Shown here piece by piece: positions 41,654 through 62,317 of a stretch of DNA of 64,000 bases. The translations under genes and the position numbers were made by a program. Every line of letters starts with the position of its first letter. Positions within the stretch are counted from its first letter, which is position 1. Source of the stretch: a virus; the IMG/VR virus record IMGVR_UViG_3300028648_000084, positions 17,532-81,531 of that record. The stretch is one strand, 5' to 3'. Below the pieces are notes generated by a model that saw only the letters and a list, made by a program, of their open reading frames with translations, did no database searches and was not told where the DNA came from.

Positions 41654-41695
41654 GCTACCTGGGATGTACGCCGTGGTTCGGCGCGCTGTCCGCTC
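41654..41695 (-). promoter_or_regulatory. Conserved 42-bp motif, copy a (ECF-like promoter, head/tail operon)
   Basis: CGGACA-N16-CGTACATCCCAG(G/A)TAGC, also present at 55549 and 62276. Confidence 0.7.
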
Positions 41696-41718
41696 CTGTC
41701 ACGAGTGGCAGCAGATCG

Positions 41719-42210
41719 TTACACCGGTAGACATGCGATCCGAGATGTGATGTCCAGAACGAGGGGCTCGTCGAGGACACTCCGCCTCATGTGGAACCGG
41801 TGCGAGTTCGTGTGCGCAGTGAATCTCGCTCTCGCCGCAACGACGGCAACGGGAATCTGGGCGGCGTAGTCCACAGAGAAGTCGGGTCGGAACACAACGG
41901 CCACCAGAAAGTGAAATGGCATCGTGTCGAGCCTTCGAATCGCACTCAGCTCGGTCGATGGGTTCTGCGGCGTCAGTCGGCGCCCCTTGATCTGGTAGCG
42001 CTGACCCTCCGCATCGGTGGCGTCATGGCCAGCTCGCGAGTTAGGTGCCCGCTCAAGGCCGAGCCCCAGGCAGACCAGATGCTCGGTGTAGTCGGCGACC
42101 GGGTTGTTTGAACTGCGAGTCACCCCTCTCCTTCGGAGCGCTTCGACGATATCCGCGTACTGAGCGAGCAACTGGCGCACGGGGAGTGTGTCAAGGTCGC
42201 CGGCTGGCAT
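41719..42210 (-). CDS. DUF6998-like protein, PD-(D/E)xK nuclease fold candidate
   Basis: NNPVADYTEHLV...GHDA...RYQIKGRR; start placed at ATG 42210. Confidence 0.6.
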   Translation of the reverse strand: MPAGDLDTLPVRQLLAQYADIVEALRRRGVTRSSNNPVADYTEHLVCLGLGLERAPNSRAGHDATDAEGQRYQIKGRRLTPQNPSTELSAIRRLDTMPFHFLVAVVFRPDFSVDYAAQIPVAVVAARARFTAHTNSHRFHMRRSVLDEPLVLDITSRIACLPV

Positions 42211-42224
42211 GCGTCGGGACCAGC

Positions 42225-42422
42225 CTATCCGCGGCTGGCCGCCGCTCCCGCGTACTCGGTGGTCGTGATCCGCTTGCCGCAGTTCCGACATTCGCGCCGT
42301 CTGATCAGCCTGCCACCCCAGGCCGAGCGCGTGTAGATCACGCGCCAGTGCCCGCACCCGCACTTGGGACAACGAATGCCGCGATCGCCCTTCACCGTCT
42401 CTTTCGCTTGGCGCTGGTTCAT
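42225..42422 (-). CDS. Small zinc-ribbon protein (Ogr/NrdR-like)
   Basis: CPKCG...RRRECRNCGKRITT; ATGA-coupled to the terminase large subunit gene. Confidence 0.75.
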   Translation of the reverse strand: MNQRQAKETVKGDRGIRCPKCGCGHWRVIYTRSAWGGRLIRRRECRNCGKRITTTEYAGAAASRG

Positions 42423-44722
42423 CGATCCCTCCGGATCGCGGACAGCTTCAGGCGCGGCCGCTTCGCAGGCATCGACGCGCCGGTCCCGAAGAGCACCGCA
42501 CCTTCCATTGATGCCGCGACCGCAGTGCCGACTGCGCAGTCGAACCAGTGGTTGTCGAGACCATCGACTCGCATCTTCCATTCATCAACCGTGCGACCAC
42601 GACCTTCGGTTCGTACTCGGTACTCGGAGAGCAGGTGGTCGGCCAGGAGTCGGTGCAGCATGGGACCGCGACCGTAAAGCGACAGGTTGCCCGGATCGCC
42701 CATCGGCACCGCGAGGCGCGCGTGAATGAAGCTCTTCCAGTAGTTCGTATCGAACACGACATGCCGTACGGCGCGGCGCCCCGTGATCGTCGGCACGCGC
42801 CAGTTGAGGCCGACACGGTCGCCACGCTTCCGCCGATACTCACTGAACGGAATGCTGGAGGCGCCGACATAGCGACCGTGACTCGGCATCACGATGCCCG
42901 CGTGCGAACTCTGCCTGCAGAACTGATACACGACATCGGTCGATGCGCCCCAGTTCGCGTCGATGAGGCATCGGTCGATGCGGACCATCGCGCCGTCGTC
43001 ACGGCGCCATTCGCGGCCGACAGTCGATTCGATCAGGCGTTCGAGCCCGGCGTAGACAGCGCCCTCGAGGCCGGCGCGAGGTGCGATGTCGGCGAGCGTG
43101 AACCTGAGGTCGCGCAGAGTGAAGTGGGCGCCGGGTGCCACCTTCTGATCCGGCTCGGTGCCGTAGTCGACGAGGTAGCCGGTGAAGTCGTCCTCCCACG
43201 CAGCGACCATCCAGAAGAGCGCCTTACCCTGGACGTCGACAAACATCGTGAGTCGAGTGCATCCGATCGGCACTTCTCGTCGCGCGTGACCGTTCGTCTT
43301 CGCCGCGATCTCGTCCGCAGTGAGCAGGTCGTCGTCGATCGCGTTGGTCTCAGGCAGCGGTTCGTTCTGATACTCGGCCCAGAAGGCTGCTTCACCTTGA
43401 AGGCGCAGGTTCATCGCGTGCTGGATGGCTGACGCTTCGTCGTGGTTGAAGCGCTCGGGCCAGGCGATCACGGCGCCTTCATCCATCGCGAGCTGGTTCT
43501 CGCGATAGAACGCGGTCGCACCGACGATGCCAGCGTCAGCGCGAAGACCAGCAGCACGCAGCTCCGCGTAGCGCGACCACATCGCTTCGTTTGTCGGGAA
43601 CGAATACACCATCTTCGTCCGCTCGCCCTGCCATGCGGGATGCTTGTCGCGATCGAGTAGACGGTCGGCCAGGTCGTCAGGACGCACGACCGTGAGCGTC
43701 ATGAGTCCCGCGATCTTCTTGCCGGGACCGGCGAGCCCAAGGATCGCCCCGGAGAGGATTCGCTCGCGCGTCTCGCATTGCGACGGACTTCGTGCCGATT
43801 CGTCGGTCTGCGGATCGTCGATGAGAACGAGCGACGGCCGCACCGCGCCTCCGTCAGGTCGTTTGTACTTCATCCCACGCACGCGACCAGTGATTCCGGC
43901 GACACGGATGATGCCCCCAGCAGCGCTCGAGCCTTCGATCGTCGGGAGCACGAGCTCACGTGCGGTCCAGCCGATGTGTGTCTGCTTGCCCCGGAAGAGT
44001 TGGCCTGACGCGCGTTGGTGGATTCCCTCGAGCTTGCGAATTGGGAAGCAGACTTCGGGGAAGTCGCCGAGCAGGAGATCGCTGTTCTCGAGTTCGGCCT
44101 TGATCGAGTCGAGCATGTTCGCGGCGTGGTCCTCGTCGCTGCCGATCAGGGCCACGAACGCGCGATGCCCGTAGAGGAGCGCCCAGAGACATGCCGTTTC
44201 GCAGAGCGAGGTCTTTCCGCTCCCGCGCGGCATCGCCATCGCAAAGAGTCCACCATCGAGCACAGCGGTCTCGATCTTCGCGATCACCTTCAGGTGGTCC
44301 GGCGACCACTTGAGGTGGAATGTCTGCGGCAGATATCGCTCGCAGAAGCCACGGAAGTTGCGCTCGCAGTCGTTCCGGCGCGTTGCATTCTGAACCGCGG
44401 GCAGTTCACCGATGTCGCGGCCCGAGATCGACTCGAGCGATGCGCGGAGCCGCATTCGATCGCGGTGCGCTTCGTAGCCCGCCCCGGCCCCGGAAGTGAC
44501 GGAGCCGTCACCTGCTTCCGGGGGAGCGTGGCGCTGATCGAAGAGCCATGCGAGATAGCGCAGCAGATTGATGCGCTGCGGATCACCGTCGGCTGCGATG
44601 CGAAGCCCCGCGCGGTTTCGGTGCCGGTGGAACTGGCGCTCACCAAGGCACTCGCCGAGCGGGGTCGAGTTGAGCAGGCGACAGAGTTCGCCCGCGCGCA
44701 GGCGTCTGACATCAGTTGCCAC
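42419..44722 (-). CDS. Terminase large subunit (gpA family) with N-terminal DNA-binding extension
   Basis: MPRGSGKT Walker A, LIDDPQTD Walker B, DNHWFDC nuclease end; start placed at GTG 44722. Confidence 0.9.
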   Translation of the reverse strand: MATDVRRLRAGELCRLLNSTPLGECLGERQFHRHRNRAGLRIAADGDPQRINLLRYLAWLFDQRHAPPEAGDGSVTSGAGAGYEAHRDRMRLRASLESISGRDIGELPAVQNATRRNDCERNFRGFCERYLPQTFHLKWSPDHLKVIAKIETAVLDGGLFAMAMPRGSGKTSLCETACLWALLYGHRAFVALIGSDEDHAANMLDSIKAELENSDLLLGDFPEVCFPIRKLEGIHQRASGQLFRGKQTHIGWTARELVLPTIEGSSAAGGIIRVAGITGRVRGMKYKRPDGGAVRPSLVLIDDPQTDESARSPSQCETRERILSGAILGLAGPGKKIAGLMTLTVVRPDDLADRLLDRDKHPAWQGERTKMVYSFPTNEAMWSRYAELRAAGLRADAGIVGATAFYRENQLAMDEGAVIAWPERFNHDEASAIQHAMNLRLQGEAAFWAEYQNEPLPETNAIDDDLLTADEIAAKTNGHARREVPIGCTRLTMFVDVQGKALFWMVAAWEDDFTGYLVDYGTEPDQKVAPGAHFTLRDLRFTLADIAPRAGLEGAVYAGLERLIESTVGREWRRDDGAMVRIDRCLIDANWGASTDVVYQFCRQSSHAGIVMPSHGRYVGASSIPFSEYRRKRGDRVGLNWRVPTITGRRAVRHVVFDTNYWKSFIHARLAVPMGDPGNLSLYGRGPMLHRLLADHLLSEYRVRTEGRGRTVDEWKMRVDGLDNHWFDCAVGTAVAASMEGAVLFGTGASMPAKRPRLKLSAIRRDR

Positions 44723-44930
44723 GAGCGGCCTCCGATGCAAGCACCTGGCGCACGAGCCACGCGCCGTAGTGCACGAGGTTGAGCGAGCCGTCGCGATTCG
44801 TCGGCGCACCGATGTCGATGTCTGCGCGGACGCGCTCGGCGCTTGCATGCTGCGAGCCGGAGGCGCGCAACAGCCGCACGAGGTCATCGATGTCAAGTGC
44901 GGCCGGGCTCTTCTTCGGCGTGTCGGTCAT
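44712..44930 (-). CDS. Small terminase-like DNA-binding protein
   Basis: 72 aa immediately upstream of the large subunit; L.RLL...NL..Y.AWL pattern. Confidence 0.6.
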   Translation of the reverse strand: MTDTPKKSPAALDIDDLVRLLRASGSQHASAERVRADIDIGAPTNRDGSLNLVHYGAWLVRQVLASEAARGN

Positions 44931-45000
44931 GCAGTGTTCCTTCGCCACGGTTCGGCCAGTTCGCAGCGAGTCGCCATGAACACCTCGGACCTTCCGCCAA

Positions 45001-45034
45001 GGGGGCGCGTGGGGGGCGTGGGGGGCGCGGGGGG
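45001..45034 (+). other. G-quadruplex-forming motif G5-N5-G6-N3-G6-N3-G6
   Basis: Read directly from the sequence; intergenic between divergent operons. Confidence 0.65.
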
Positions 45035-45185
45035 CGTTCCGGTGGCGAAACATCTGCGGCATTCCGGCGAGGTGTTCGCCCAGTTGCCTTGATGGGTTGG
45101 CGATGTCATGCCCTCATGTCGCCAACGCGATCGAGATGCCCGAACGACGAGGCGCGAACGCGAGGAACGAACGAAGGACAACGCC

Positions 45186-45479: not shown

Positions 45480-45509
45480 CGCCACGCACCACGAACCAAG
45501 GAGAACGCC

Positions 45510-45770: not shown

Positions 45771-45778
45771 GGACCACC

Positions 45779-47346: not shown

Positions 47347-47796
47347 TCAAGCGCTCGCTCCCGCGCCAGCACTTGCTGGCGCTTTCTCAGTCGCGAGCTT
47401 CTGACGTGCGTTCCGCCGTCGCTTGGCGTCGACCACTCCAGTGATGTGACACTCCCTGCAGCGACTCATCAGCCCTGTGCGACCCGGGTAGCAGTAGAAG
47501 GCGGTCTCCGGCTTGAGCACACCGCATCGGCGGCACGGTTTCCACCAGACGCCGTCGCGAAGTTCGCAGCCGCTGTGGATGCGCTTGTGGTGGAGCCGAC
47601 TCATGAGCTGTAGGTTCTCGATCCGGTTGTCGAGCTTGTCGCCGTTGATGTGGTGAATCTCCTTGCCGGGCGGAACCGGCCCGTGGTGCGCCTCCCACAC
47701 GAGTCGATGTTCAAACTTCAGCTTCCGCTCGCGCGTCATCATGCGGCGGTAGCCGAGCACGGTCACATAGCCTCGCGGTCGAGGTCGAGGACTCAT
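47347..47796 (-). CDS. HNH endonuclease with C-terminal zinc finger
   Basis: EHRLVW...IHHINGDKLDNRIENL; CRRC...CREC; ATGA-coupled to the methyltransferase gene. Confidence 0.85.
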   Translation of the reverse strand: MSPRPRPRGYVTVLGYRRMMTRERKLKFEHRLVWEAHHGPVPPGKEIHHINGDKLDNRIENLQLMSRLHHKRIHSGCELRDGVWWKPCRRCGVLKPETAFYCYPGRTGLMSRCRECHITGVVDAKRRRNARQKLATEKAPASAGAGASA

Positions 47797-49139
47797 CGCA
47801 TCGCCTCCTCGCGCGCCTTCATCGGAATCGGCGATGTGCCGGTTCGCTCGAGCACCGCGTGCTTCCCGGTGAATCTCTGGTAGCGGTCGACTATGAGATC
47901 GCAGTACAGCGGGTCCAGCTCCATCAGGAACGCGCGACGACCAGTCTGCTCGGCGCCGATGAGCGTCGATCCGCTCCCTCCGAACAGATCGAGCACGTTT
48001 TCTCCAGCGCGTGAGGAGTACTGCATGGCGCGCGTTGCGAGCTCCACGCTCTTCTGAGTCAAATGTTCCATCTTCTGCGGCGGGATCTTCTTCACATGCC
48101 ACAGGTCGGTCGCGTTGTTCGGACCGAGGAAGAGATGCGCGGCGCCTTCGCGCCAGCCGTAGAAGCAGATCTCGAACGCGCCCATGAAGTCCTTGCGCGT
48201 GAGCACCGGATGCTGCTTGTCCCAGACGATGCCCTGTGAGAAGTACAGCTCGTGCTTCTTGAGGAATGGCGGGTAGTTGCCGAGGTTCGCGTAGCCGCCC
48301 CAGATGTAGAACCCGCGCCCCGGCAATAGCACGCGCGCCATGTTGCCGAACCACGCATCGAGCAGCTCATCGAACGCTTCGTCAGTCACGAAGTCGTTCG
48401 CGAGCGGACGGTCCTTCGCGCGGAGCTGTCGATGAGTCGCCTTCGATCCCGGGTTCCGCGCCTTGTCGAACTTCTGGTGATGCCCCCGGGTCGTACCTTC
48501 GAACGATGAGAGGCCTGCGGCGATCGCGTTGTTCGAGCGCGGTTCGACCTTCACGTTGTACGGCGGGTCCGTGTTGACGAGATGGATCGGTTGGCCATCA
48601 AGCAGGCGATCGAGATCCGCAACTGACGAGCTGTCACCGCAGAGCAGCCGGTGATCACCAAGAACCCACAGGTCGCCGGGCTGCGTGGTCGCAGCATCAG
48701 GTGGCGACGGCACATCGTCCGGGTCGGCGAGCCCGTCCTTCATGTCGCCCGCGAAGATCTTCGCGAGCTCATCTGCGTCGAACCCGAGCGATGCGAGATC
48801 GACATCGATCGACCGCAATGCATCGAGCTCGATCGCGAGTAGATCCATGTTCCATTCGGCGAGCTCGGCGGTCTTGTTGTCCGCAATGCGGTACGCGCGG
48901 ATCTGCTCGGGCGTGAGATCGCGGGCCACATGCACCGGTGCCTTCTCGAGGCCGAGCTTCTGCGCCGCCTTCCAGCGCGTGTGCCCGCAGACGATCACGC
49001 CGTCGGTGTCGACCACGATCGGTTGGCGGAACCCGAACTGCTTCAGCGATGTCGCGACCGCATCGATCGCGTCGTCGTTGATGCGCGGGTTCGCCTCGTA
49101 GGGCTTGATGTCAGCGAGCGGACGGAGTTCGATCTTCAT
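47793..49139 (-). CDS. ParB-like domain / DNA adenine methyltransferase fusion
   Basis: PYEANPRIND..GFRQPIVV ParB-like domain; TDPPYNV; VLDLFGGSGST. Confidence 0.9.
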   Translation of the reverse strand: MKIELRPLADIKPYEANPRINDDAIDAVATSLKQFGFRQPIVVDTDGVIVCGHTRWKAAQKLGLEKAPVHVARDLTPEQIRAYRIADNKTAELAEWNMDLLAIELDALRSIDVDLASLGFDADELAKIFAGDMKDGLADPDDVPSPPDAATTQPGDLWVLGDHRLLCGDSSSVADLDRLLDGQPIHLVNTDPPYNVKVEPRSNNAIAAGLSSFEGTTRGHHQKFDKARNPGSKATHRQLRAKDRPLANDFVTDEAFDELLDAWFGNMARVLLPGRGFYIWGGYANLGNYPPFLKKHELYFSQGIVWDKQHPVLTRKDFMGAFEICFYGWREGAAHLFLGPNNATDLWHVKKIPPQKMEHLTQKSVELATRAMQYSSRAGENVLDLFGGSGSTLIGAEQTGRRAFLMELDPLYCDLIVDRYQRFTGKHAVLERTGTSPIPMKAREEAMR

Positions 49140-49510
49140 CGGGGGGAGTCCTTTCCGTAGTCGTCCTGTTCGAGGCGCCGCTGAACGGCGATGAGCTTCA
49201 GGTCGGACGCGGCGTAAAGCACGCGGCTTGCGATGGCGACAGTCGGGATGGGGCCGCGCGGTGCGCTGAGTCGATGAAGCGTTCGGATGCCGATGCCGAG
49301 TTGACGCGCCGCTTCCTTGGCGTCCACGAGCAGCGGTTCAGTCTTTCCGGGTTGCGGCGCATGCATGCGTGTCGTCGCGAGCGCCGCACGCTGCCGATCT
49401 CGTTCGCGCTCCGCTTCACGCTGCACGCGGCCGTCCTCAATGGCGGCCAACAACTCGAGGAGGGATTCGGCCATGCGATGCATGGCCGCCGATTCGCGGG
49501 GGGTTGTCAT
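49136..49510 (-). CDS. Excisionase-like HTH protein (124 aa)
   Basis: LLVDAKEAARQLGIGIRTLHRL...IPTVAIASRVLY, HTH_17 pattern. Confidence 0.75.
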   Translation of the reverse strand: MTTPRESAAMHRMAESLLELLAAIEDGRVQREAERERDRQRAALATTRMHAPQPGKTEPLLVDAKEAARQLGIGIRTLHRLSAPRGPIPTVAIASRVLYAASDLKLIAVQRRLEQDDYGKDSPR

Positions 49511-49756
49511 TCCGCGATCGTCCCTCGGCGCGCCCGAAGCGATCGGCACTTGGCGAACGACGCCGCCAAGGGGGCCAACCTTGGCCAACTCGCGACGACT
49601 GGGCGACCCTGCGCCACCGGCGCAACGGGGGCGACCGTCGTGGTCCAGGTGGCGACCGCGCCGCGTTCGGCACCTTGAAATAAAGTCAGTCGCCATTGGC
49701 GACTGTTCCCACGTGCCTTTCGGGCAGTTTTCGCGCTGGTAGTACCTACGACCATT

Positions 49757-49996
49757 CGAACTGCGCGCACGAACCTCAAGCGCGCGCGCAGTTAGTTCGG
49801 GTGCTGCGGCCAACTGGCCGCACGCACCCCGGGGGGGTATGGGGGGGTGCGCGCAGTTAGTTAGTTCGCTGGCTCGCGCCCCGATAACGGGTCGAACTGC
49901 GCGCAGCGCGCCGATGGGGTGCGCGCAGTTCGCGGTGGCTGAACGAACCAACTGCGCGCAGCGAACCACCCGATTCGGGTGCGCGCAGTTAGTTCG
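49757..49996. repeat. Seven GCGCGCAGTT iteron-like repeats in both orientations (candidate replication origin)
   Basis: Direct copies at 49784, 49849, 49921, 49981; inverted copies at 49759, 49895, 49950; directly downstream of the primase-helicase gene. Confidence 0.75.
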
Positions 49997-50016
49997 CGAC
50001 TTGCTGCGGGCCACCG

Positions 50017-53885: not shown

Positions 53886-54251
53886 TCAGAATGTCTCCAC
53901 GATCTCGACGGCGCATGAGCCCCCGGGAACGCATGCACCACGCTCAATGGTGAGATGGTCGATCTGCGAGTCGTCCTCGTAGACACCTGCGTGCGCAAGC
54001 GCATCAAGCAGGCTCTTCATGGAGTTGTCGATGTCCCGGCGCCGGCGATCGGGTGGATGAAGAATGACGATCATGTCGAGGCGACCCCGGAAGGTTGATG
54101 TGTCGGGACTCAGCCGCGCTGCCGCGAGGAGGGAGCACACGCGTTCGCGGTAGCTCCTCCCCTCACGGCTCAACAGGACGCGCGGGCCGACATGCCGCCA
54201 GTAGCGATTGACCGACGGCGGAAATGGAAGGGTGAGTACGCGTCGTCTCAT
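53886..54251 (-). CDS. rusA: RusA Holliday junction resolvase
   Basis: LPFPPSVNRYWR...PDRRRRDIDNSMKSLLDAL..AGVYEDDSQI. Confidence 0.92.
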   Translation of the reverse strand: MRRRVLTLPFPPSVNRYWRHVGPRVLLSREGRSYRERVCSLLAAARLSPDTSTFRGRLDMIVILHPPDRRRRDIDNSMKSLLDALAHAGVYEDDSQIDHLTIERGACVPGGSCAVEIVETF

Positions 54252-54754
54252 CGCTTCCACGGCGGCGTCGAACCCGCGGCCACAGGTTGGCGCGGAGCGC
54301 CACCCGTTGGCCCGCTTGCGACGGCAGCGCCGGCTGGCCCATGGCCTCCGCCGTGATTGCCTCGCTTCGCGTAGCCCTTGATGATGTTGGTGAACTCGCC
54401 GCTGTCATCGCGGCGCTTGAGCCCGACACTGATCTCAAGCGGGATGTTGTGCAGTTCGACCGAGTCGCGCGGTTGCATCACGCTGATCGCCCGGCAGATC
54501 GACGAGAGTTCGCCACGCGCGATCTTCACTGCCATCGCGCTGTCGTTCTCAAGATTGAGCCTTGCCCAGACGAAGCGGCCTCGGAACTCGCCTTCGATCA
54601 CCTGGAATGTGAGCTGCAGGTACTGGCCGTTGCCCGCCTTCGTCGGCTTCATCTCCGACTCGGTGATGATGGCGGCGTAGCGACCTGCAGGCAGCGGATC
54701 GAACTGAACTGCGGGATCGATCTGGTTCGCGTCGAAGTTGTTGAGATGAGCCAT
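54248..54754 (-). CDS. DUF669-family phage ssDNA-binding protein
   Basis: FDPLPAGRY...EMKPTKAGNGQYLQL; Gly-rich tail ending PPWKR. Confidence 0.85.
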   Translation of the reverse strand: MAHLNNFDANQIDPAVQFDPLPAGRYAAIITESEMKPTKAGNGQYLQLTFQVIEGEFRGRFVWARLNLENDSAMAVKIARGELSSICRAISVMQPRDSVELHNIPLEISVGLKRRDDSGEFTNIIKGYAKRGNHGGGHGPAGAAVASGPTGGAPRQPVAAGSTPPWKR

Positions 54755-54776
54755 GTGTGTGTCTCCTGAGAGTGCG

Positions 54777-55517
54777 TCAGTTGGTCGATGCTGGCGACGG
54801 CGCGTTGTGCGCAATCGCGTCGGTGAGTTCCTGCCATGACAGCGCGAGCCGCGGCGGCAGCGCGTATCGGTTCTTCGCGGTGATCGTGCTCGTTGACTCG
54901 GTCGTGAGAATGCGAGTCCCGTCGGGCTCGCGCGATGCATAGAGCACGCAGTCGGCCCACTCGATGAACATCGGCGCGATCCACCCCGGAATGTCCGGGC
55001 CTGCGAGCCGCACATCGAACCCCTCGGGGGTCGTCATCTTTGTGTTGGCCGCATGCGCGAGCAGGAGCACCGTGATGCCGCGATCAGTGATCGCGTTCAA
55101 CAGTGGCAGCAACTCGCGGCTCACGATGTTCTGCACGATCTCGCGCGCCTTGAAGTAGCCACCGTGGGCGGATGAGAGAGTGTTGGTCACATCGCCGCGG
55201 CTCTTCTTGTCGAGGTCCATCACAACGAACTCGACGATGCGCTGGAGCAACCAATCGAGCGTGTCGATCGCGACGACCCGCAGGCCTTCGGGAGCGTTGC
55301 TCTCGATCTCACTGAGCCATGCAAATGCCTCTGGCCAGCTTCGAATGAACGGCGTGCGCGTGAGACCTGGAATCGCGCCGGCGCCGTTCTCGCAGTCGAT
55401 GAGAAGCGCGTCGGCGCCTTGGGCAAGCGTTGTCTTTCCGACTCCAGCGCCGCCGTACAGCAGGACCTTCGGCGGCGCTGGTGTCGTGGTCGTGATCAAT
55501 GTGTCGAGCAGTGGCAT
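54777..55517 (-). CDS. Sak4-like AAA_24 ssDNA-annealing ATPase
   Basis: LLYGGAGVGKTT, VAIDTLDWL, LLAH, EWADCV, AKNRY. Confidence 0.88.
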   Translation of the reverse strand: MPLLDTLITTTTPAPPKVLLYGGAGVGKTTLAQGADALLIDCENGAGAIPGLTRTPFIRSWPEAFAWLSEIESNAPEGLRVVAIDTLDWLLQRIVEFVVMDLDKKSRGDVTNTLSSAHGGYFKAREIVQNIVSRELLPLLNAITDRGITVLLLAHAANTKMTTPEGFDVRLAGPDIPGWIAPMFIEWADCVLYASREPDGTRILTTESTSTITAKNRYALPPRLALSWQELTDAIAHNAPSPASTN

Positions 55518-55548: not shown

Positions 55549-55590
55549 GCTATCTGGGATGTACGCCGCGATTCCGAGCGCTGTCCGCTC
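55549..55590 (-). promoter_or_regulatory. Conserved 42-bp motif, copy b (replication operon)
   Basis: GCTATCTGGGATGTACGCCGCGATTCCGAGCGCTGTCCGCTC on the plus strand. Confidence 0.7.
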
Positions 55591-56167
55591 AGTGACCGAA
55601 ACCGTGGCGGATGAAGTGCTCACGGATCTCGGCGATGAGGGAGCGCATCTGCCGACGCGAGATGCCGAGACGCCGCGCGGCGGTCGCCGGTGTGTCCTCG
55701 CGCAGGAGCCGCACCACGATCACAAGGTCTGGCTGCAGCGACGCTGTCGCGTGCTCGATCGACTGGCGGGTGATGAATGCACCGATCGCGTCGGGCGCCG
55801 CGCCGCCATGCCGCGTCGCCGCCTCAGACTCCGTGATCGCTTCCGCGCGCCGCCGTTGCCCACGGGCGTCCGGCGCATCGAACGACCAGGTGTTGAGCGC
55901 CACGCGCCGGCAATCGCGGTAGCGCTCCTTGATGAGCGAAGCACCAATGCTCCGCATCGCGCACGCCACGAGAGCGTGCAGCGCGCCACGGCAGAGATCG
56001 AGCTTCGCGAGCCTTGGCGCGAGTTGGATTCGGATCGCGCCTGCGATGTCGGCGATGTCGTCGCCGACGAACTCGCGGCGCTGCGCGAGTTCCCGCGCCT
56101 TCTTCCGGATCGCGCGCTTGACGATGGGGTGCGTGAGGAGGTCGGACGGGTTGTTCGGTAGCGACAT
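55589..56167 (-). CDS. Phage sigma70/ECF-like factor
   Basis: Region-2-like N-terminal half; region-4 HTH (ASLQPDLVIVVRLL...TAARRLGISRRQM); start placed at ATG 56167. Confidence 0.7.
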   Translation of the reverse strand: MSLPNNPSDLLTHPIVKRAIRKKARELAQRREFVGDDIADIAGAIRIQLAPRLAKLDLCRGALHALVACAMRSIGASLIKERYRDCRRVALNTWSFDAPDARGQRRRAEAITESEAATRHGGAAPDAIGAFITRQSIEHATASLQPDLVIVVRLLREDTPATAARRLGISRRQMRSLIAEIREHFIRHGFGH

Positions 56168-56246: not shown

Positions 56247-58088
56247 CTAGCTCTTACCGTCCGATGAGATCTTCATCGCAATGTGACCACGCTGCGATCC
56301 ATCGATGTCAAGCAGCTCGCCCATACCCGCATCGCGGAGCTTCTTGCGCAAGGTGCTTGCGCACTTGTGCACGGTGTTCCTTCTCCGCGTGTTTCCGTCC
56401 CAGACATCCGCCAGCAAGGTCTCCATGCTGAGGTAGGCGCCTGGACGGAGTGCGAGGCGCCGGAACAGTTTCAATTCGATTGTGCTTCCGAGGAAGCACC
56501 CTTTGTCGCGGAAGCATGCACGGAGGCCGTCCTCGTCGACCGCGGGCGCCTTGTAGAAGGCCGACTTTCCGTTCGCGGCACCCGAGGATGACGCATCGGT
56601 GGTGTCAGCGAGAGCTGGTGGTGGACTTAGAGCCGGCGCGGGCGGGGCAAGGCGCGCAAGGATTCCCAGCGGTGAGTCATGGGGCACTTCGCCGTCGACG
56701 ATCCGATTCGCCTCCTGCTTGACGAGCGCTACCACAGCACGGTGCACCTGGTCGGCATGGCGACGATGCAATTGGAACACCTGTTCCGCGGCGGCGGCGG
56801 TCGATCCGGGGAGCGAAGAGAGCACTCGACCAACTTCACCGAACTGGGAGAGGAAGCCCTGCACCGAGGTGATCGAGCGGATCTTGAGCACGGACCCGAC
56901 ATACCTTTCGACGAGCGTCTTGTGAAGCTCGTCGCGGCAACGCATGTCGAGTCCAGTGGCATACATCTCGACAGGATCGTTGTCGTTGCCCATCTCGGCG
57001 GCGATGGCCGCGAAGCGCCGGTCGATGCACTGGGAGCAGCGCCCGCAATGGCTGTGCTGAGTCGTGCGCTCCTTCGTGTGGGCGCAACTGATTGTCTTCG
57101 CGCAGAGCGGCGCGAGGGCAGTAGTCCTGAGCTGCTCCAGAATCTCGGTGCGAGTTCGCCATAGGAACGGGTTCTCGATCTCGAACGGAACCTCGAAGAC
57201 GAGAGATAGCAGTTCTCGCAACCGCCTGATCGTGAGGGGATGGGTGGTGCGACTCGCGCGACCACCGACGAGTTCTGCTGCGATGGGGAGATTGAATGAA
57301 ATGGGCCCGTTCTCGTAGAAGCGGAATCGCGAGAGGCCAAGCCCACGCGCCACGGCGCCCGCCATCGTCGCGAACACGAACGACCGTGTGCGTTGCGTGT
57401 TGTCGACGCCGAGATCCTTGCCTTTGTTCAATCCAACTGGAATGTGGACGGGCCCGTGGCCAGACTTCGCGTGCGCGGCGAGAGCGGTGACGAGGTCACG
57501 CTGCGGCTTGCCGACCTTACTCGTGGAGACATGGCTCACGAGCGCCACTCGGCGCTGGCCGACCACGATCTCCTGCACGGCGCCACTGAATGAGTCGAGG
57601 CCACCTGAGAACAACATCACTTCCTCGATCCGGGGACCTTCGACCTTGCCAGTCGCGAATGGGAGGTATGCCTCGATTGGTGCGGGACTTTTGTTCTTCT
57701 CGAAGATGAATTCGTAATCGTCATCCGACAGGAACCCCAGTGCCGACGTGAGCGCCTCCAAGGTGGCGCGAGCATTCCAGAACGCGACATCTCGCACAGG
57801 AACCTCGAAGCGGAGATGGCGACGCCACTTCTTCCCGTACTCGAAAGAGGAGTCGCCTCCGCGGCTGACCGCCTGATCGGCCGTGTAGACATAGGCCGCG
57901 ATCTCGAGCAGATCGAGAGCTCTCGGTGGAAGCGGCGCCACAAGCTTGTTCGGGATGTCGCCACTTTTCAGGTGGACCTCTCGGGCACCTTTCCCGATCG
58001 ACAGCTTGATCGGGCGAGCGCCCGTCCAGCGTTTCGCCTTCGACGAGGTCCGAGCGCCGCCGCAGAGGATGAGGCGGGGTGCGCTCAT
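56247..58088 (-). CDS. QueC-like (QatC-type) PP-loop enzyme fused to a C-terminal OmpR-like winged helix
   Basis: LFSGGLDS PP-loop; TQRTRSF; SCAH...HCGRCSQC zinc site; tail LFRRLALRPGAYLSMETLLADVWDG...HKCASTLRKKL. Confidence 0.85.
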   Translation of the reverse strand: MSAPRLILCGGARTSSKAKRWTGARPIKLSIGKGAREVHLKSGDIPNKLVAPLPPRALDLLEIAAYVYTADQAVSRGGDSSFEYGKKWRRHLRFEVPVRDVAFWNARATLEALTSALGFLSDDDYEFIFEKNKSPAPIEAYLPFATGKVEGPRIEEVMLFSGGLDSFSGAVQEIVVGQRRVALVSHVSTSKVGKPQRDLVTALAAHAKSGHGPVHIPVGLNKGKDLGVDNTQRTRSFVFATMAGAVARGLGLSRFRFYENGPISFNLPIAAELVGGRASRTTHPLTIRRLRELLSLVFEVPFEIENPFLWRTRTEILEQLRTTALAPLCAKTISCAHTKERTTQHSHCGRCSQCIDRRFAAIAAEMGNDNDPVEMYATGLDMRCRDELHKTLVERYVGSVLKIRSITSVQGFLSQFGEVGRVLSSLPGSTAAAAEQVFQLHRRHADQVHRAVVALVKQEANRIVDGEVPHDSPLGILARLAPPAPALSPPPALADTTDASSSGAANGKSAFYKAPAVDEDGLRACFRDKGCFLGSTIELKLFRRLALRPGAYLSMETLLADVWDGNTRRRNTVHKCASTLRKKLRDAGMGELLDIDGSQRGHIAMKISSDGKS

Positions 58089-58858
58089 CCGGCGGCTCTC
58101 CGTCGGACCTCGCTGCGGATCTTCGTGATGCAGTAGCTCGCGAAACGGCGAGCTGAGTCTTCCGACAGTCCCGTCTCGAACTTGGACTTGCCGTACCAAC
58201 CGGACGCGAACTCGCGAACGATCGATGTGACCTGGGAGCTGTGCTGCCGAAGTGCGTCGAGAAACTCGTTGTGGGCTGCGGAGTCAGCGAACCGCTGGTT
58301 CTGGCCGACATGCTGCGAGAGTTCCCGGCTCAGGTGGTAGGTTAGATAGCGTTCGAAGAAGCGAGTGAAGAACGCATGCGTCAGCGTTCTGAATCCCCCC
58401 TCGGTCCCGAATGCGCCCAGAGCTGACTTTGCGCTTGCTGCCGCATCACTCCACAGGAGGTCGGGCGCGGCGCCTGCCGTCGCGCTGATCGCCTCGATGG
58501 CCGCCATCTGCGCCATCTCGCCGAGGTCGTTGCGAGCTCGGTTCGCCGTCAGGTGGCGATCGACCGCGTCACTGAATCCTGCGAGTACATCCGTGAGCGA
58601 CGCATCGTTGGAGACATCGATCGCGCACTCGCGAAGCGCGCTGGCGAAATCACCCTTGCGTGCCGCCGCGACGATCCTCGCCAGTAGCCAGACTGAGTAC
58701 GCGACGCCTCTGTCCCGTCCAGCAAGTTCGAGACCGCGCTCGGCAGCCTCAAGCGTTGCCTCAGCGACAGCCGCGACATCCTCGCCGAGCGCGAGTGCCT
58801 CGACGACATGCCACCACTTCGAGGTATCAGGCGGGAACTGAAGACGGTTGTGGCCGAT
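58085..58858 (-). CDS. QatB-like partner protein (257 aa) with an ATC start codon
   Basis: Frame is open for 114 codons upstream of ATG 58516 with no ATG/GTG/TTG. GGAG lies 7 nt before ATC-GGC-CAC-AAC-CGT. Stop codon overlaps the QueC-like ATG. Confidence 0.7.
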   Translation of the reverse strand: MGHNRLQFPPDTSKWWHVVEALALGEDVAAVAEATLEAAERGLELAGRDRGVAYSVWLLARIVAAARKGDFASALRECAIDVSNDASLTDVLAGFSDAVDRHLTANRARNDLGEMAQMAAIEAISATAGAAPDLLWSDAAASAKSALGAFGTEGGFRTLTHAFFTRFFERYLTYHLSRELSQHVGQNQRFADSAAHNEFLDALRQHSSQVTSIVREFASGWYGKSKFETGLSEDSARRFASYCITKIRSEVRRRAAG

Positions 58859-59001
58859 GGGCGGACTCCGGAAACCCGTTCCACCGGAGCCGAAGCCCCG
58901 ACTGAGACAGATCTTGCGACAGTATTGCCGATGCCTGCCTCGCCTTCAAACGGGCACGCCGGTGGTCGACCTCGCAGCTCCCATTCCGCTAGGGTTCGAG
59001 C

Positions 59002-59745
59002 ATGGACTGTTGGGCCAAGGGACATGGGCCATGCCGCGGCGCAATCACCGGCGAGCATTGGGTGCCGCGTGGGATTGCCACTGGACCGTCAGTCGACGTG
59101 CGAGGAATGACCTTCTGTGGCAACGAGACCCGCACCATCCCGTGGTCCACGGCGCTGAGCAACATGCTCTGCGAGCGCCACAACCACGAGGTCTCTAGCG
59201 GGCTCGATATGGAGGCGATCCGCCTCAAGCGGTCCATCGAAGCGGTGGCAGACGAGAGCGATGTCTGCCGCCCGGGAGCGCTGTGGCGCGGCCCGAACGT
59301 GATCGAACTTCCGTTCGATCAGCTTGCGCGCTGGATGACAAAGACCTGGTGCAATTTCGTCGCCGCCAACCGTGGCGCCGTGATGCCCGCCGCCGCGGCT
59401 TACGCGATGGGAGTCGAGGCGGCCGACATCAGGATGTTCCCTTACCTGCGCGCAACCCTGCACACGGAAGTGATGCTCGACACCGCGATCGGCCACATCG
59501 GCGTGCTTTCACTCGAAGACGCGAACGGTGTCATCGGATTCCAAGGAGAGGTCTTTGGCCTTACCTTCCTCGTTACCTGCCATGATTTGCGGGGAACGCC
59601 GCGGCGCATTCGGGTCGACGGAGAGGGTGTCATCTCAAGCAACGAGCTGAAGCGTCGGGTCGAGCTCGACTTTCGGGCGCATGTCCCTATGCACGGTACT
59701 GTCGTTGTCGCGAAGCTCGTGCTGGGATCGGGTCAGACCACTTGA
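59002..59745 (+). CDS. Hypothetical protein with an HNH-like N-terminus
   Basis: C-x7-C...GEHWVP...LCERHN pattern; divergent from the QatB-like gene. Confidence 0.55.
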   Translation: MDCWAKGHGPCRGAITGEHWVPRGIATGPSVDVRGMTFCGNETRTIPWSTALSNMLCERHNHEVSSGLDMEAIRLKRSIEAVADESDVCRPGALWRGPNVIELPFDQLARWMTKTWCNFVAANRGAVMPAAAAYAMGVEAADIRMFPYLRATLHTEVMLDTAIGHIGVLSLEDANGVIGFQGEVFGLTFLVTCHDLRGTPRRIRVDGEGVISSNELKRRVELDFRAHVPMHGTVVVAKLVLGSGQTT

Positions 59746-60131
59746 GCGGCGCGCCGCCACGCTGACCTCTGTTCCTTCCAATCCGTGTGGGCCACGATCG
59801 GCCGCAACCGCCTTTCGTTGAGCCGGTCGCGACCGGTCCTGGCGCTGCCCCAGTGCAGCAGCTCCTCCTGAATGTCCGGGGCGAGCAGGGTCAAGTTCAG
59901 GATCTGCGTCACGCGAGGCTGCGTGATCCGGGTGAGCCGGGCGAGTTCCGACAGACTCGCCACCGAGCCGTCTCTCAGGAGCCGATCGAAGCGGATCGCA
60001 AGCGCCATCAGACGCGCCACGCGCGGCACCCGAGGCGGCAGCACCTTCTCTGCGGGTGCCGGCTCATCCGCGAGGACAACCCGACCACCGCTCGTGCGAG
60101 TGAGGTGAACTTTCGCTCGTAGTGCCATCAT
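59733..60131 (-). CDS. Recombinase-associated small HTH protein
   Basis: ATGA-coupled to the recombinase gene; homolog of the 17041-17400 fragment. Confidence 0.75.
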   Translation of the reverse strand: MMALRAKVHLTRTSGGRVVLADEPAPAEKVLPPRVPRVARLMALAIRFDRLLRDGSVASLSELARLTRITQPRVTQILNLTLLAPDIQEELLHWGSARTGRDRLNERRLRPIVAHTDWKEQRSAWRRAAQVV

Positions 60132-61495
60132 GCGGCTTCCTCCAGTGATCCCTTGGTGAGCGCGGTCACGCCCGTCGGATGGAACATGACTTCAACGCTG
60201 CTCTCCGCGCCGTCGTACTCGACGCGGTCGATCGCGAGATCAAGCACCCGCGTCTGCTCGCGTGGCGTGAGCGCTGCCCACAGCGACTCGAAGTCGTCAA
60301 GCGCCATCGTCACATCCGCCACGCCGACGGCGCGGTCAGACTCCCGCGCCGACGCGACTGCCGCGTTCATGATCGCTGGTTGACGCAGCGCCACCGCGAG
60401 CTGCTCCAGCACGACGCGTTCGATCTCTGCCGCAGGCAGCGATGGTGACGGGCAGTTCGCTCGAGTGGTTCGGTTCGCCTTCGAACAGACGTAGTACCGA
60501 TAGCGCTTCGTGCCTCGGCCCGAGAGCACATGCACCATGGCGCAGCCGCACGCTCGGCAGTGCAGGCGACCCTTGAGCATCGCACCATTCTCGGAGGCAG
60601 CCGGGGTCGAGCCAGAACGACCGTTCGCATGGAGTTGCTTCTGCACTCGCGCGAACGTCGCCTCCGACACGATCGCCTCATGCTCACCCGGGAACCGCTC
60701 CCCTTTATGGACAATCTGGCCGGTGCACAGTGGGTTCGTGAGAAGCTGGTGCAGCGACGGCCGGTCGAACGGGCGACCGCCGAGGCGTTTGCCGTTCTGG
60801 GTCGACCAGACCTTGTTCGTCCACCTCCGGCGATCGAGCTCCTCGACCACCGGCAGGAGCGAGCCCTTCTCCAGGTACAGCTCGAAGATGGTCCGCACGC
60901 GCGACGCTTCCTCGGGGTTCACCACGAGGCGCGGGCTCGGTCCTGAGCGATCGACCTCGTACCCGAGCATCGGCTTTCCGCCCGCCCACTTCCCTCGGCG
61001 GCGCGCCGCGGCAATCTTGTCGCGGATGCGCTCGCCGATGATCTCGCGCTCGAACTGCGCGAAAGAGAGCAGGACGTTCAGCATCAGGCGACCCATCGAG
61101 TCACGGGTATTGAACGCCTGCGTCACCGAAACGAACGCCACGCCGTGGCGTTCGAACGTCTCCATGACTTTCGTGAAGTCGAGGAGCGACCGGCTGAGGC
61201 GATCGACCTTGTAAACCACCACGCAGTCGATCGCCCCGGACGCGATATCGGCGAGAAGTCGCTGGAGCGCGGGCCGCTCGATGTTGCCGCCCGTGAATCC
61301 ACCGTCGTCGTAACGCGCCGGAAGACAGGTCCAACCCTCTGTCTTCTGACTGGCGATGTACGCCTCGCCGCTCTCGCGCTGGGCGTCGAGAGAGTTGAAC
61401 TCCTGGTCGAGCCCCTCCTCGGTGCTCTTCCTCGTGTAGACGGCGCAGCGCATGCGCTTCGTGTTCGTCGCGACGGCGGCCATGCGGCGACTCAC
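60128..61495 (-). CDS. Large serine recombinase (integrase)
   Basis: CAVYTRKS catalytic Ser, SLDAQ, VYKVDRLSRS, recombinase domain, CRACG...YYVC zinc ribbon; start GTG 61495 or ATG 61483. Confidence 0.95.
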   Translation of the reverse strand: MSRRMAAVATNTKRMRCAVYTRKSTEEGLDQEFNSLDAQRESGEAYIASQKTEGWTCLPARYDDGGFTGGNIERPALQRLLADIASGAIDCVVVYKVDRLSRSLLDFTKVMETFERHGVAFVSVTQAFNTRDSMGRLMLNVLLSFAQFEREIIGERIRDKIAAARRRGKWAGGKPMLGYEVDRSGPSPRLVVNPEEASRVRTIFELYLEKGSLLPVVEELDRRRWTNKVWSTQNGKRLGGRPFDRPSLHQLLTNPLCTGQIVHKGERFPGEHEAIVSEATFARVQKQLHANGRSGSTPAASENGAMLKGRLHCRACGCAMVHVLSGRGTKRYRYYVCSKANRTTRANCPSPSLPAAEIERVVLEQLAVALRQPAIMNAAVASARESDRAVGVADVTMALDDFESLWAALTPREQTRVLDLAIDRVEYDGAESSVEVMFHPTGVTALTKGSLEEAA

Positions 61496-62013
61496 TGCGG
61501 CCTCTCCAGACCGAAGAAGCGGAAGCCGTTGATGTGGGAGCCTGTGATCAACTTCGCGACGGCCGACAGCGAGGGGAGGTGCTGGCCATCCCACTCGAAG
61601 CCGTCATCGAGGACGTTCACGACGAGTCGACGCCCCTTGTAGTCGCGGACGATCGAAGTGCCGGGACGCGGCAGCCGGGGATCGTGGTTAGTCGGTACGC
61701 CGTGGATCTCGCGCGAACGAGGGATTGTGCGAATGGCACCAGAGCGAGGTGGCGTCACGCGCACTTCGGCATCGTTCGCAAGCTCTTCGGCGCGTCGGAG
61801 CGCGCGATCCGAGAGTCCGCCCTCAGCGTTCGCTTGGATGCGCCACGCGATGCGGCGGATGAGGTACTGGCGGTGTCGGCTTCGAGCCTTCTCGCCGACG
61901 ACTTCCGCGTAGCGCTCGTGCAGCTCGCCGACGGTCATCCGTTCGAGTGCAGCGATCTCTGTTTCGATATCGATGATCATGTACTTGGTCTCCTTGCCAC
62001 CCGCATCGTTCAC
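61492..62013 (-). CDS. DUF2924-family protein
   Basis: LERMTVGEL..RY, LIRRIAWRIQANAEGGLS, PGTSIVRDYKG, SLSAVAKLITGSHINGFRFFGL. Confidence 0.88.
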   Translation of the reverse strand: MNDAGGKETKYMIIDIETEIAALERMTVGELHERYAEVVGEKARSRHRQYLIRRIAWRIQANAEGGLSDRALRRAEELANDAEVRVTPPRSGAIRTIPRSREIHGVPTNHDPRLPRPGTSIVRDYKGRRLVVNVLDDGFEWDGQHLPSLSAVAKLITGSHINGFRFFGLERPQ

Positions 62014-62216
62014 CCGCGGGTACGGTCTGCCACACTGAGCGGCAAGGGCGCCGGAACCTCAAGGCCACTTGCAGAGGATTCCTGCGAGATTCCGGGCACC
62101 GGAGGTGTGATCCGCCGGTCGAGCGCCATGCGCTGGACGACTGCGGCCGCGAGGATGCTCGCGAGTTCTCGAAGACGATCGGAAGGTGCGATGTCCGGCT
62201 GCGACCTTGCAGACAT
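62010..62216 (-). CDS. Small hypothetical protein leading the recombinase operon
   Basis: 68 aa, ATGA-coupled to the DUF2924 gene. Confidence 0.55.
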   Translation of the reverse strand: MSARSQPDIAPSDRLRELASILAAAVVQRMALDRRITPPVPGISQESSASGLEVPAPLPLSVADRTRG

Positions 62217-62275
62217 GCGGCGACTCCTGGGCCGCGGGCATCAGCCTGCGACTGCGGGGTGAAGGGCGAACGGTG

Positions 62276-62317
62276 GCTATCTGGGATGTACGCCGTGATT
62301 CCGACGCATGTCCGGCA
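62276..62317 (-). promoter_or_regulatory. Conserved 42-bp motif, copy c (recombinase operon)
   Basis: GCTATCTGGGATGTACGCCGTGATTCCGACGCATGTCCGGCA on the plus strand. Confidence 0.7.

What the first reader, a model, noticed from the sequence alone, without database searches (positions are those of the whole stretch)
41654..62317. Three copies of a 42-bp ECF-type promoter motif define a phage sigma regulon
Seen: CGGACA-N16-CGTACATCCCAG(A/G)TAGC (minus strand) at 41654-41695, 55549-55590 and 62276-62317. Each copy is intergenic and upstream of an operon: head/tail, replication, and recombinase. Known: ECF promoters have a ~16-bp spacer and -10 boxes such as CGTA. Inference: the encoded sigma-like protein drives excision, replication and virion genes from one promoter class, which makes it the master switch of this prophage.
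Basis: partly seen in the sequence, partly recalled or inferred. Interest (0 to 1): 0.75.

Follow-up and report, generated by a model that had tools for sequence, protein, structure and literature searches.

The report
Phage sigma factor's three private promoters
An integrated virus of Planctomycetota-type bacteria carries its own small sigma factor and three near-identical two-part promoters that most likely switch on its recombinase, replication and virion genes; the strategy is known from other phages, and here it is supported by comparison of related viruses, not by experiment.

Summary
GGACA-N16-CGTACATCCCAGRTAGC occurs three times on the minus strand, and nowhere else in the 85.9-kb virus record (0 to 0.2 expected).

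Each copy lies 38-66 nt before the first gene of a block: a gpW-like gene plus portal and head, the replication genes, and DUF2924 plus a serine recombinase.

The 192-aa gene that ends 2 nt before copy 2 encodes a divergent two-domain (sigma2+sigma4) sigma-70-family protein. It falls below curated thresholds itself, but its family clearly matches ECF sigmas.

Comparative evidence is strong:
- The same three-site layout recurs in at least three sigma lineages, and partly in a fourth, of Planctomycetota prophages. Each has its own box sequences and a fixed 16-nt spacer.
- Perfect copies occur only inside the prophage in 3.6-6.4 Mb host genomes.
- Upstream-box type tracks the sigma4 recognition helix, and downstream-box type tracks a sigma2 helix.

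No transcript data exist.

The "master switch" reading is only partly supported. The terminase genes and the sigma operon itself lack the motif, and what controls the sigma is unknown.

This is a new member of a known kind (SPO1 gp28, phiEco32 gp36, PBSX Xpf). This scan has already reported similar phage sigma/promoter sets on other DNA.

The parts
41654..41691 (-). Promoter copy P1. GGACA is at 41691-41687, the 16-nt spacer follows, CGTA is at 41670-41667, and the conserved extension runs to 41654. The start is predicted near A41660. P1 heads the gpW-like gene, portal, head and tail genes.
   Evidence: Orthologous copies stand before the W-like gene plus portal in IMG/VR contig L032, G003 (L088), G047 (L127) and G359 (L150).
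55549..55586 (-). Promoter copy P2. GGACA is at 55586-55582, CGTA at 55565-55562, and the start is predicted near A55555. It begins 2 nt after the sigma stop codon and heads the replication genes.
   Evidence: A two-part motif sits at the same place after the sigma gene in about 21 of 32 lineages.
62276..62313 (-). Promoter copy P3. GGACA is at 62313-62309, CGTA at 62292-62289, and the start is predicted near A62282. It heads a 68-aa gene, DUF2924, the large serine recombinase and a 132-aa gene.
   Evidence: Orthologous copies stand before DUF2924 plus recombinase in L030/L035, G003 (L087), G047 (L129) and G005 (L125).
55589..56167 (-). Gene for the 192-aa sigma-like protein (P0001), a divergent two-domain sigma-70-family (ECF-like) factor.
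56247..58199 (-). 650-aa protein with a QueC-like PP-loop domain and an OmpR-type winged helix, encoded just upstream of the sigma in the same operon. It is a possible regulator of the sigma but is not shared by all lineages that have the motif.
   Evidence: No homologue was found in the G003 prophage.
58921..58949 (-). Sigma-70-like TTGAAG-17-AATACT before the sigma operon. It is the candidate host-read promoter that would start the cascade.
   Evidence: Sequence read. It is a consensus resemblance only, not significant by itself.
37886..41611 (-). First genes downstream of P1: a 66-aa gpW-like gene (41411-41611), the portal gene (39906-41411) and a 681-aa gene whose C-terminal half is a capsid domain (37886-39931). 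Tail genes follow, down to about 28,900.
   Evidence: Phage_portal_2 3e-59; Phage_capsid_4 4e-35; tail tube.
47793..55517 (-). Replication block downstream of P2: AAA_24 ATPase, RusA, a DEAD/ResIII helicase, a primase-polymerase with AAA_25, a 294-aa protein and a ParB-methyltransferase.
59733..62216 (-). Recombination block downstream of P3: a 68-aa protein, DUF2924, the large serine recombinase and a 132-aa protein (phrog_14161, 'recombinase').
42419..44930 (-). Small-terminase-like (about 44712-44930) and large-terminase (gpA-type) genes. They lie upstream of P1 and have no copy of the motif.

Best explanation
The three sites are promoters read by host core RNA polymerase carrying the phage's own 192-aa sigma factor. 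GGACA acts as the -35 box, contacted by the sigma4 helix-turn-helix (recognition helix ISRRQ). Sixteen bases downstream, CGTA acts as the -10 box, contacted by sigma2. Transcription should start about 7-9 nt later, at the A of AGATAGC. The likely order is as follows. The sigma operon (a helical protein, the QueC-like winged-helix protein, then the sigma) is transcribed first from a host-type promoter. The sigma then turns on three blocks in parallel: recombination, replication, and portal/head/tail. Shown here: the sites, their rarity, their positions, the sigma fold and family, and the co-variation across lineages. Inferred: binding to core polymerase, use of the sites as promoters, the start site and the timing.
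For: 1. Rarity and placement. There are three copies and no others in the record. Each is co-oriented with the next block and lies 38-66 nt before a start codon that has a GGAG ribosome-binding site.

2. Box-and-spacer pattern. Nine distinct instances from close relatives keep GGACA and the 20-nt block around CGTA, with three substitutions in all. The 16-nt spacer varies in sequence but never in length.

3. The protein is a sigma. The AlphaFold model has two helical domains joined by a disordered linker, and all the top Foldseek hits listed are sigma-70-family factors or sigma-like regulators. A 60-member family profile hits the R. sphaeroides ECF RpoE at 1.6e-7, and other sigmas. Fifty of the 60 members hit Pfam Sigma70_r2 and 13 hit Sigma70_ECF. 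TIGR02937 aligns end to end at 2.5e-10 to 7.6e-9 for three relatives.

4. Layout conserved across deep divergence. The P0008 lineage has a sigma only 33% identical. It carries exactly three perfect copies of GGACA-N16-CGTATGTAGCC per 3.6-4.5 Mb genome, at the same three gene junctions. G047 has exactly three perfect CGTCA-N16-GGTAGCT sites in 6.4 Mb, again at those junctions. G359 and G005 show two of the three sites.

5. Promoters track the sigma, not their neighbours. Between the window and G003, TerL is 75% and portal 64% identical, yet the promoter lying between them has switched to the type that matches the local sigma.

6. Modular co-variation. The sigma4 helix SRRQ goes with GGAC in 8 of 9 lineages and with none of 12 others. 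The sigma4 helix PR(T/S/A)T goes with CGTCA/GACCA/GGCCA. A methionine in a sigma2 helix goes with a CATA -10 box in 7 of 7 lineages, against 0 of 14.

7. No host regulon. In four host genomes the minimal GGACA-N16-CGTA exceeds the reversed-pattern control only by about the three prophage copies.

8. The QueC-winged-helix protein has no homologue in the G003 prophage, which does have the motif. The sigma is therefore the regulator shared by the lineages compared.
Against: There is no transcript, start-site or binding data of any kind. The window's own sigma fails every curated family threshold (TIGR02937 13.7 bits against a cut-off of 42.9; no Pfam sigma hit), and its model is only moderately confident (pLDDT 67). 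The co-variation counts are not phylogenetically independent: motif types cluster on the sigma tree, and the copy next to the sigma gene is physically linked to it. The -35 box lacks the AAC typical of ECF promoters. Conservation runs about 13 nt past CGTA, which sigma contacts alone do not explain. No terminator precedes P1 or P2, so upstream transcripts may read through and the sites may only boost expression. Some lineages have no intergenic space, and no recognisable motif, after the sigma gene.
Confidence: 0.78

Rival explanations
1. The sites are promoters, but a host ECF sigma factor reads them and the phage has copied a host regulon signal. An earlier report of this scan proposed this for another Planctomycetes phage.
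For: GGACA-N16-CGTA has the general ECF shape, and Planctomycetota encode many ECF sigmas. Relative P0009 weakly matches a Rhodopirellula/Verrucomicrobium sigma family. The sigma gene has no copy of the motif in front of it.
Against: In four host genomes the minimal motif is no more frequent than its reversed control, apart from the three prophage copies. The extended motifs occur only in the prophage. Box sequences change with the phage sigma's own helices between lineages.
Confidence: 0.06
2. The sites are binding sites for a DNA-binding regulator acting as an activator or repressor beside an ordinary host-type promoter, not as a polymerase subunit. The regulator could be the sigma-like protein itself or another phage protein such as the QueC-winged-helix protein.
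For: The conserved block around CGTA is 20 nt long, longer than a -10 box. The C-terminal helix-turn-helix also matches KorA/TrfB repressors weakly. An OmpR-type winged-helix protein is encoded next door.
Against: No dyad symmetry beyond chance was found. No sigma-70-like hexamers were found at the sites. The winged-helix protein has no homologue in the G003 prophage, which keeps the motif. The N-terminal domain matches sigma region 2, not a regulator domain. Two boxes at a rigid 16-nt spacing, each co-varying with a different domain, is the sigma-holoenzyme pattern.
Confidence: 0.1
3. The element acts as RNA or as a recombination or packaging site, for example an antitermination or processing signal or a recombinase target, and its promoter-like shape is incidental.
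For: There are three direct copies in a phage that encodes a serine recombinase. Some spacers can form short hairpins. P1 and P2 would lie within transcripts coming from upstream.
Against: The window has no Rfam match. Spacer folding is no better than in shuffles and is not conserved between copies. Recombination between three direct repeats would delete essential genes. Conservation is in two boxes at a fixed distance, and the boxes co-vary with sigma residues.
Confidence: 0.03

Closest known systems
Phage-encoded sigma factors with private promoter classes: SPO1 gp28 and gp34, T4 gp55 (PMC9429907), and, from my own knowledge, coliphage phiEco32 gp36
   Same: The phage carries its own sigma, which redirects host core polymerase to a small set of near-identical phage-only promoters in front of gene blocks.
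   Different: Here the phage is temperate and integrated, and its hosts are Planctomycetota. There are only three promoters. They cover the recombinase and replication blocks as well as the virion genes, so this is not a middle or late class alone. The sigma family is below the thresholds of curated models.
Xpf of the Bacillus subtilis defective prophage PBSX, listed as a group IV sigma2+sigma4 positive control factor (PMC10141391)
   Same: It is a prophage-encoded two-domain sigma acting as positive control factor for prophage genes.
   Different: From my own knowledge, Xpf controls the late (virion and lysis) operon only. No sequence relationship beyond the sigma-70 superfamily was shown here. 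The box sequences and the three-site layout differ.
Bacterial ECF (group 4) sigma factors and their promoters, e.g. B. subtilis SigW with TGAAAC-N16-CGTA (from my own knowledge) and R. sphaeroides RpoE (PDB 2q1z)
   Same: They share the two-domain architecture, a roughly 16-nt spacer, CGT in the -10 box and a G-rich, A/C-containing -35 box.
   Different: No anti-sigma gene was recognised and there is no autoregulatory copy before the sigma operon. The -35 box is GGACA, not GGAAC. The linker is long (about 45 residues, disordered). Promoter conservation extends to about +7.
Other phage sigma/promoter sets already reported by this scan on other DNA (e1-5246262, e1-3581565, e1-5352464, e1-3267112)
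   Same: Each has a small phage sigma beside several copies of a two-part motif before phage gene blocks. One case also has three copies covering replication and excision genes.
   Different: The hosts, sigma families and box sequences differ. Those reports were not checked here.

Membership tests
ECF (group 4) sigma-70-family factors | Only the sigma2 and sigma4 domains are present, in a protein of about 170-220 aa. | tested here: met
   The protein is 192 aa. The AlphaFold model has two helical domains (residues 7-94 and 127-187) and a disordered linker. Foldseek hits cover residues 7-187 of sigma factors.
ECF (group 4) sigma-70-family factors | Significant sequence match to Sigma70_r2 / Sigma70_r4_2 / TIGR02937 at curated thresholds. 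| tested here: inconclusive
   The window protein has no Pfam sigma hit and scores E 0.035, 13.7 bits against a cut-off of 42.9 on TIGR02937. At family level, 50 of 60 members hit Sigma70_r2 and 13 hit Sigma70_ECF, the profile hits RpoE 2q1z at 1.6e-7, and relatives score 35-40 bits on TIGR02937, still under the cut-off.
ECF (group 4) sigma-70-family factors | Cognate promoter with a GGAAC-like -35 box, a 16-17 nt spacer and a CGT-containing -10 box. | tested here: met
   GGACA-N16-CGTA is found in all instances, with an invariant spacer length. The -35 box reads ACA instead of AAC.
ECF (group 4) sigma-70-family factors | Adjacent co-transcribed anti-sigma factor. | tested here: not met
   The neighbours are a QueC-like winged-helix protein upstream and an AAA_24 ATPase downstream. 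Pfam and PHROGs recognised no anti-sigma domain. Not all ECF groups have an anti-sigma, and a novel one cannot be excluded.
ECF (group 4) sigma-70-family factors | Positive autoregulation from a cognate promoter upstream of the sigma's own operon. | tested here: not met
   The record has only three copies and none lies before the sigma operon. That region shows only a sigma-70-like TTGAAG-17-AATACT.
ECF (group 4) sigma-70-family factors | Binds core RNA polymerase and directs promoter-specific initiation. | not testable with these tools
   This needs biochemistry or genetics. No RNA run was listed.
Phage-encoded sigma with private promoters (SPO1 gp28 / phiEco32 gp36 / PBSX Xpf type) | The sigma gene lies inside the phage, and several near-identical promoters stand before phage gene blocks and are absent from the host genome. 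| tested here: met
   Perfect copies are confined to the prophage in 3.6-6.4 Mb genomes and lie at conserved junctions.
Phage-encoded sigma with private promoters (SPO1 gp28 / phiEco32 gp36 / PBSX Xpf type) | Expression of the target genes depends on the sigma. | not testable with these tools
   No cultured host or phage is available and no transcriptome was listed.
Repressor operators (CI-type or stoperator-like repeated sites) | Dyad-symmetric or short repeated sites bound by a repressor encoded in the phage. | tested here: not met
   The longest inverted repeat within each 42-nt site is 4-5 nt, the same as in shuffles. No CI-like repressor was recognised beside the sites.

The most novel reading that the evidence does not exclude
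The family may be a natural set of orthogonal sigma/promoter pairs with a readable two-module specificity code: sigma4 SRRQ with GGACA, sigma4 PR(T/S)T with CGTCA-type boxes, and a sigma2 methionine with CATA against CGTA or GGTA. The promoters may also carry a second recognition layer around the start site. The stretch CCAGATAG is shared by the window lineage and the G047 lineage even though their -35 box, -10 box and sigma helices differ. That would point to a start-site or initial-transcript requirement, or to a 5' RNA tag read by another phage factor. Such a layer would let one sigma run integration or excision, replication and assembly with separate fine control.
Probability: 0.2. Interest if true: 0.65.

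Novelty: new member of a known kind. Interest (0 to 1): 0.5.

Why it matters
Almost nothing is known about gene control in viruses of Planctomycetota. This result gives a concrete, testable circuit: one small sigma and three promoters. The sigma family is present in about one in ten sampled genomes of the phylum (41 of 401). The circuit suggests that a temperate phage places its recombinase, replication and virion genes under a single private sigma, so whatever controls that sigma would decide between lysogeny and lytic growth. The lineage-specific box and helix pairs could also provide orthogonal expression parts for a phylum with few genetic tools. The family is missed by curated sigma models, so many such genes are annotated as hypothetical.

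Tried and rejected
- **Exact 17-mer search of genome contigs.** It gave 27 single hits in unrelated taxa. None carries the GGACA box, and the number is within my back-of-envelope chance expectation for 596 Gb, so they are not relatives.
- **Cultured phages.** tblastn of the sigma gave no match. TerL gave only distant hits under 30% identity.
- **P0001 in genome contigs.** No relative was found.
- **Rfam on the window.** No match.
- **Spacer hairpin or RNA element.** Folding energies are no better than in shuffles and the pairing is not conserved between copies.
- **Dyad symmetry (operator idea).** None beyond chance.
- **Sigma-70-like hexamers at the three sites.** None. The scan of 44000-63500 found 2 sites where 1.9 were expected, both elsewhere.
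- **RNA evidence.** No RNA holder was listed for the region. DNA holders are bioreactor, activated-sludge and wastewater metagenomes.
- **Extra copies in other lineages.**
  - G274 gave one perfect copy and G273 one perfect plus ambiguous one-mismatch hits.
  - G361 gave one perfect copy plus a one-mismatch copy 17.7 kb away on the same strand.
  - G018 gave three perfect copies on separate contigs, and only the copy next to the sigma was placed.
  - These are left as partial or uncertain.
- **The 247-aa divergent gene as a repressor candidate.** Only hypothetical-protein clusters were found, with no DNA-binding family.
- **Loose fourth hit, CGGCA-N16-CGTAAGT at 30220-30247.** Chance level.
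- **Sigma with the RNA polymerase beta-prime subunit (complex prediction).** Not run. It is a textbook pair and a pass would have changed my odds little.
Full report
**Observation**

The pattern CGGACA-N16-CGTACATCCCAGRTAGC lies on the minus strand at 41654-41692, 55549-55587 and 62276-62314. With up to three mismatches allowed, no other site appears, and shuffles give none. The window is part of an 85,891-bp virus record. That record holds only these three copies. Even the minimal GGACA-N16-CGTA occurs three times where 0.2 are expected.

**Gene context**

The genes around the sites run on the minus strand.

- P3 (62276-62313) lies in a divergent region opposite a DNA methylase gene. It precedes a 68-aa gene, DUF2924, a large serine recombinase and a 132-aa protein that PHROGs labels 'recombinase'.
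- Next comes one gene on the opposite strand (247 aa, unknown function).
- Then an operon encodes a helical protein, a 650-aa QueC-like PP-loop protein fused to an OmpR-type winged helix, and a 192-aa protein.
- P2 begins 2 nt after the stop codon of that 192-aa gene. It lies 38 nt before the AAA_24 gene, which is followed by RusA, a helicase, a primase-polymerase and a ParB-methyltransferase.
- After a plus-strand cluster come the small and large terminase genes and a 217-aa gene.
- P1 follows, 49 nt before a 66-aa gpW-like gene. Then come the portal gene, a 681-aa gene whose C-terminal half is a capsid domain, and the tail genes.

Each site is therefore intergenic, co-oriented with the block it precedes, and followed by a GGAG ribosome-binding site. 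The terminase genes and the sigma operon have no copy.

**The 192-aa protein**

Alone, it fails curated models. It gives only weak helix-turn-helix hits in Pfam, E 0.035 on TIGR02937 and 1.7e-4 on a PHROGs sigma family. Only six near-identical homologues exist among 5.8 billion clustered proteins.

A profile search of 1.84 billion representatives finds a family of 654 clusters of about 190-200 aa. Of 60 members, 50 hit Pfam Sigma70_r2 and 13 hit Sigma70_ECF. The family profile hits the R. sphaeroides ECF RpoE at 1.6e-7, and many other sigma factors, in the PDB.

The AlphaFold model (pLDDT 67) has two helical domains joined by a 45-residue disordered linker. The listed Foldseek matches in the PDB and Swiss-Prot are all sigma-70-family factors or sigma-like regulators and span both domains, although the E-values are weak. 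I conclude that it is a divergent group-4-like sigma factor.

**Close relatives**

Five related contigs from metagenomes keep the gene order. They give nine distinct instances of the motif. GGACA and the block CGGCGTACATCCCAGATAGC are kept, with three substitutions in all. The spacer varies in sequence but is always 16 nt long. Paralogous copies share nothing outside the motif. Orthologous copies also share their 5' leaders.

**Distant relatives**

This is the main test.

- The P0008 lineage has a sigma 33% identical to the window's and lives in MAGs mostly labelled Phycisphaerales. Each of four genomes of 3.6-4.5 Mb has exactly three perfect copies of GGACA-N16-CGTATGTAGCC, with controls of 0-1.
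- On contig G003:C16 these copies lie before DUF2924 plus the recombinase, directly after the sigma gene, and between TerL and the W-like gene plus portal.
- In G047 (6.4 Mb) there are exactly three perfect CGTCA-N16-GGTAGCT sites. All lie within 23 kb on one strand, at the same three junctions.
- G359 has the copy after the sigma gene and the copy before the portal. G005 has the copy after the sigma gene and the copy before the recombinase.
- Between the window and G003, TerL is 75% and portal 64% identical while the sigma is 33% identical. Yet the promoter lying between TerL and portal has the type that matches the local sigma. This is evidence of co-evolution that does not depend on linkage to the sigma gene.

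**Family-wide pattern**

The sigma family occurs in 41 of 401 sampled Planctomycetota genomes. In about 21 of 32 lineages, the 3' end of the sigma gene or the DNA just after it carries xGxCA-N16-(C/G)(G/A)TA, often followed by nGTA.

The box type follows the protein:

- The sigma4 recognition helix SRRQ goes with GGAC in 8 of 9 lineages, and with none of 12 others.
- The helix PR(T/S/A)T goes with CGTCA, GACCA or GGCCA, together with a GGTA -10 box.
- A methionine in a sigma2 helix goes with CATA in 7 of 7 lineages, against 0 of 14.

The two associations cut across each other, as expected if sigma4 reads the upstream box and sigma2 the downstream box. The counts are not independent events: motif types cluster on the sigma tree (6 changes, against 10.7 in shuffles). 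I therefore treat them as supportive, not as proof.

**Rivals**

- **Host sigma.** An earlier report of this scan proposed a host-sigma regulon for another Planctomycetes phage. Here it is unlikely. In four host genomes the minimal motif is no more common than its reversed control, apart from the three prophage copies.
- **Operator or activator site.** This is disfavoured for three reasons. There is no dyad symmetry. The winged-helix protein has no homologue in the G003 prophage, which keeps the motif. The N-terminal domain matches sigma region 2.
- **RNA element.** This is disfavoured because Rfam finds nothing and spacer folding is neither unusual nor conserved.

**What remains open**

- No RNA run holding this sequence could be listed, so promoter use, the start site and the timing are all inferred.
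- 'Master switch' overstates the evidence. The sigma is the last gene of an operon that has no copy of the motif, only a sigma-70-like TTGAAG-17-AATACT. Control must therefore act on that operon or on the sigma protein, possibly through the QueC-like winged-helix protein.
- In every lineage all copies are identical from about -15 to about +7. CCAGATAG around the predicted start is shared by the window lineage and the G047 lineage although their boxes and sigma helices differ. This is unexplained.

**Comparison and novelty**

Phage-encoded sigma factors with private promoters are long known. Examples are SPO1 gp28 and gp34 and T4 gp55 (PMC9429907), Xpf of prophage PBSX, listed as a group IV sigma2+sigma4 factor (PMC10141391), and, from my own knowledge, phiEco32 gp36. 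This scan has also reported several similar sets on other DNA.

Literature searches found no paper on a sigma factor of Planctomycetota phages. I class the finding as a new member of a known kind. Its particular features are a host phylum with little known phage biology, a fixed three-promoter layout that includes the recombinase block, and clear lineage-specific box and helix pairs.

Noticed in passing
window 1811-1990 and 18728-18929; also contig 3186-3388 and 83470-83656 (the last equals window 65939-66125, beyond the window end): A roughly 200-bp element occurs in four direct copies (75-82% identity), which looks like the junctions of a tandem array of integrated elements. The unit that holds the sigma and the three promoters would span about window 18.9k-65.9k (47 kb). 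The other two units are 16-17 kb and have no sigma and no promoter copy.
   Followed up: partly
window 5674-11825 versus 28587-34794: A 6.2-kb block of tail genes is duplicated at 82.6% identity. The copy in the upstream unit seems to be a remnant of a related prophage. Two further serine-recombinase paralogues lie at contig 5853-7157 and 11204-13018.
   Followed up: partly
window 56247-58858: A helical protein and a QueC-like PP-loop enzyme fused to an OmpR-type winged helix stand directly upstream of the sigma in one operon. The pair is conserved in the close relatives but has no homologue in the G003 prophage. It may control the sigma.
   Followed up: partly
window 44930-45108: The upstream region of the terminase genes has no copy of the sigma motif and contains C-rich tandem repeats (CGCCCCCC / ACGCCCCCC). 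How the terminase genes are transcribed is unknown.
   Followed up: no
window 19509-27500: A 2663-aa Rhs-repeat protein with DUF6531 and a dockerin-like segment lies at the tail-distal end of the prophage unit, apparently as cargo.
   Followed up: no
window 594-1741: An XRE-type helix-turn-helix gene followed by an ImmA/IrrE-type M78 peptidase gene lies in the neighbouring unit, not in the unit with the sigma. This is the usual immunity-repressor and anti-repressor pair of integrated elements.
   Followed up: no
L097, L098, L100, L114, L115 (Planctomycetota genomes): In some lineages the sigma gene abuts or overlaps the next gene, a small protein with a conserved YR(F/Y)xF motif. These lineages have no intergenic space and no recognisable motif there. 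In L102, L104, L105 and L046 the -10 box contains the sigma stop codon.
   Followed up: no
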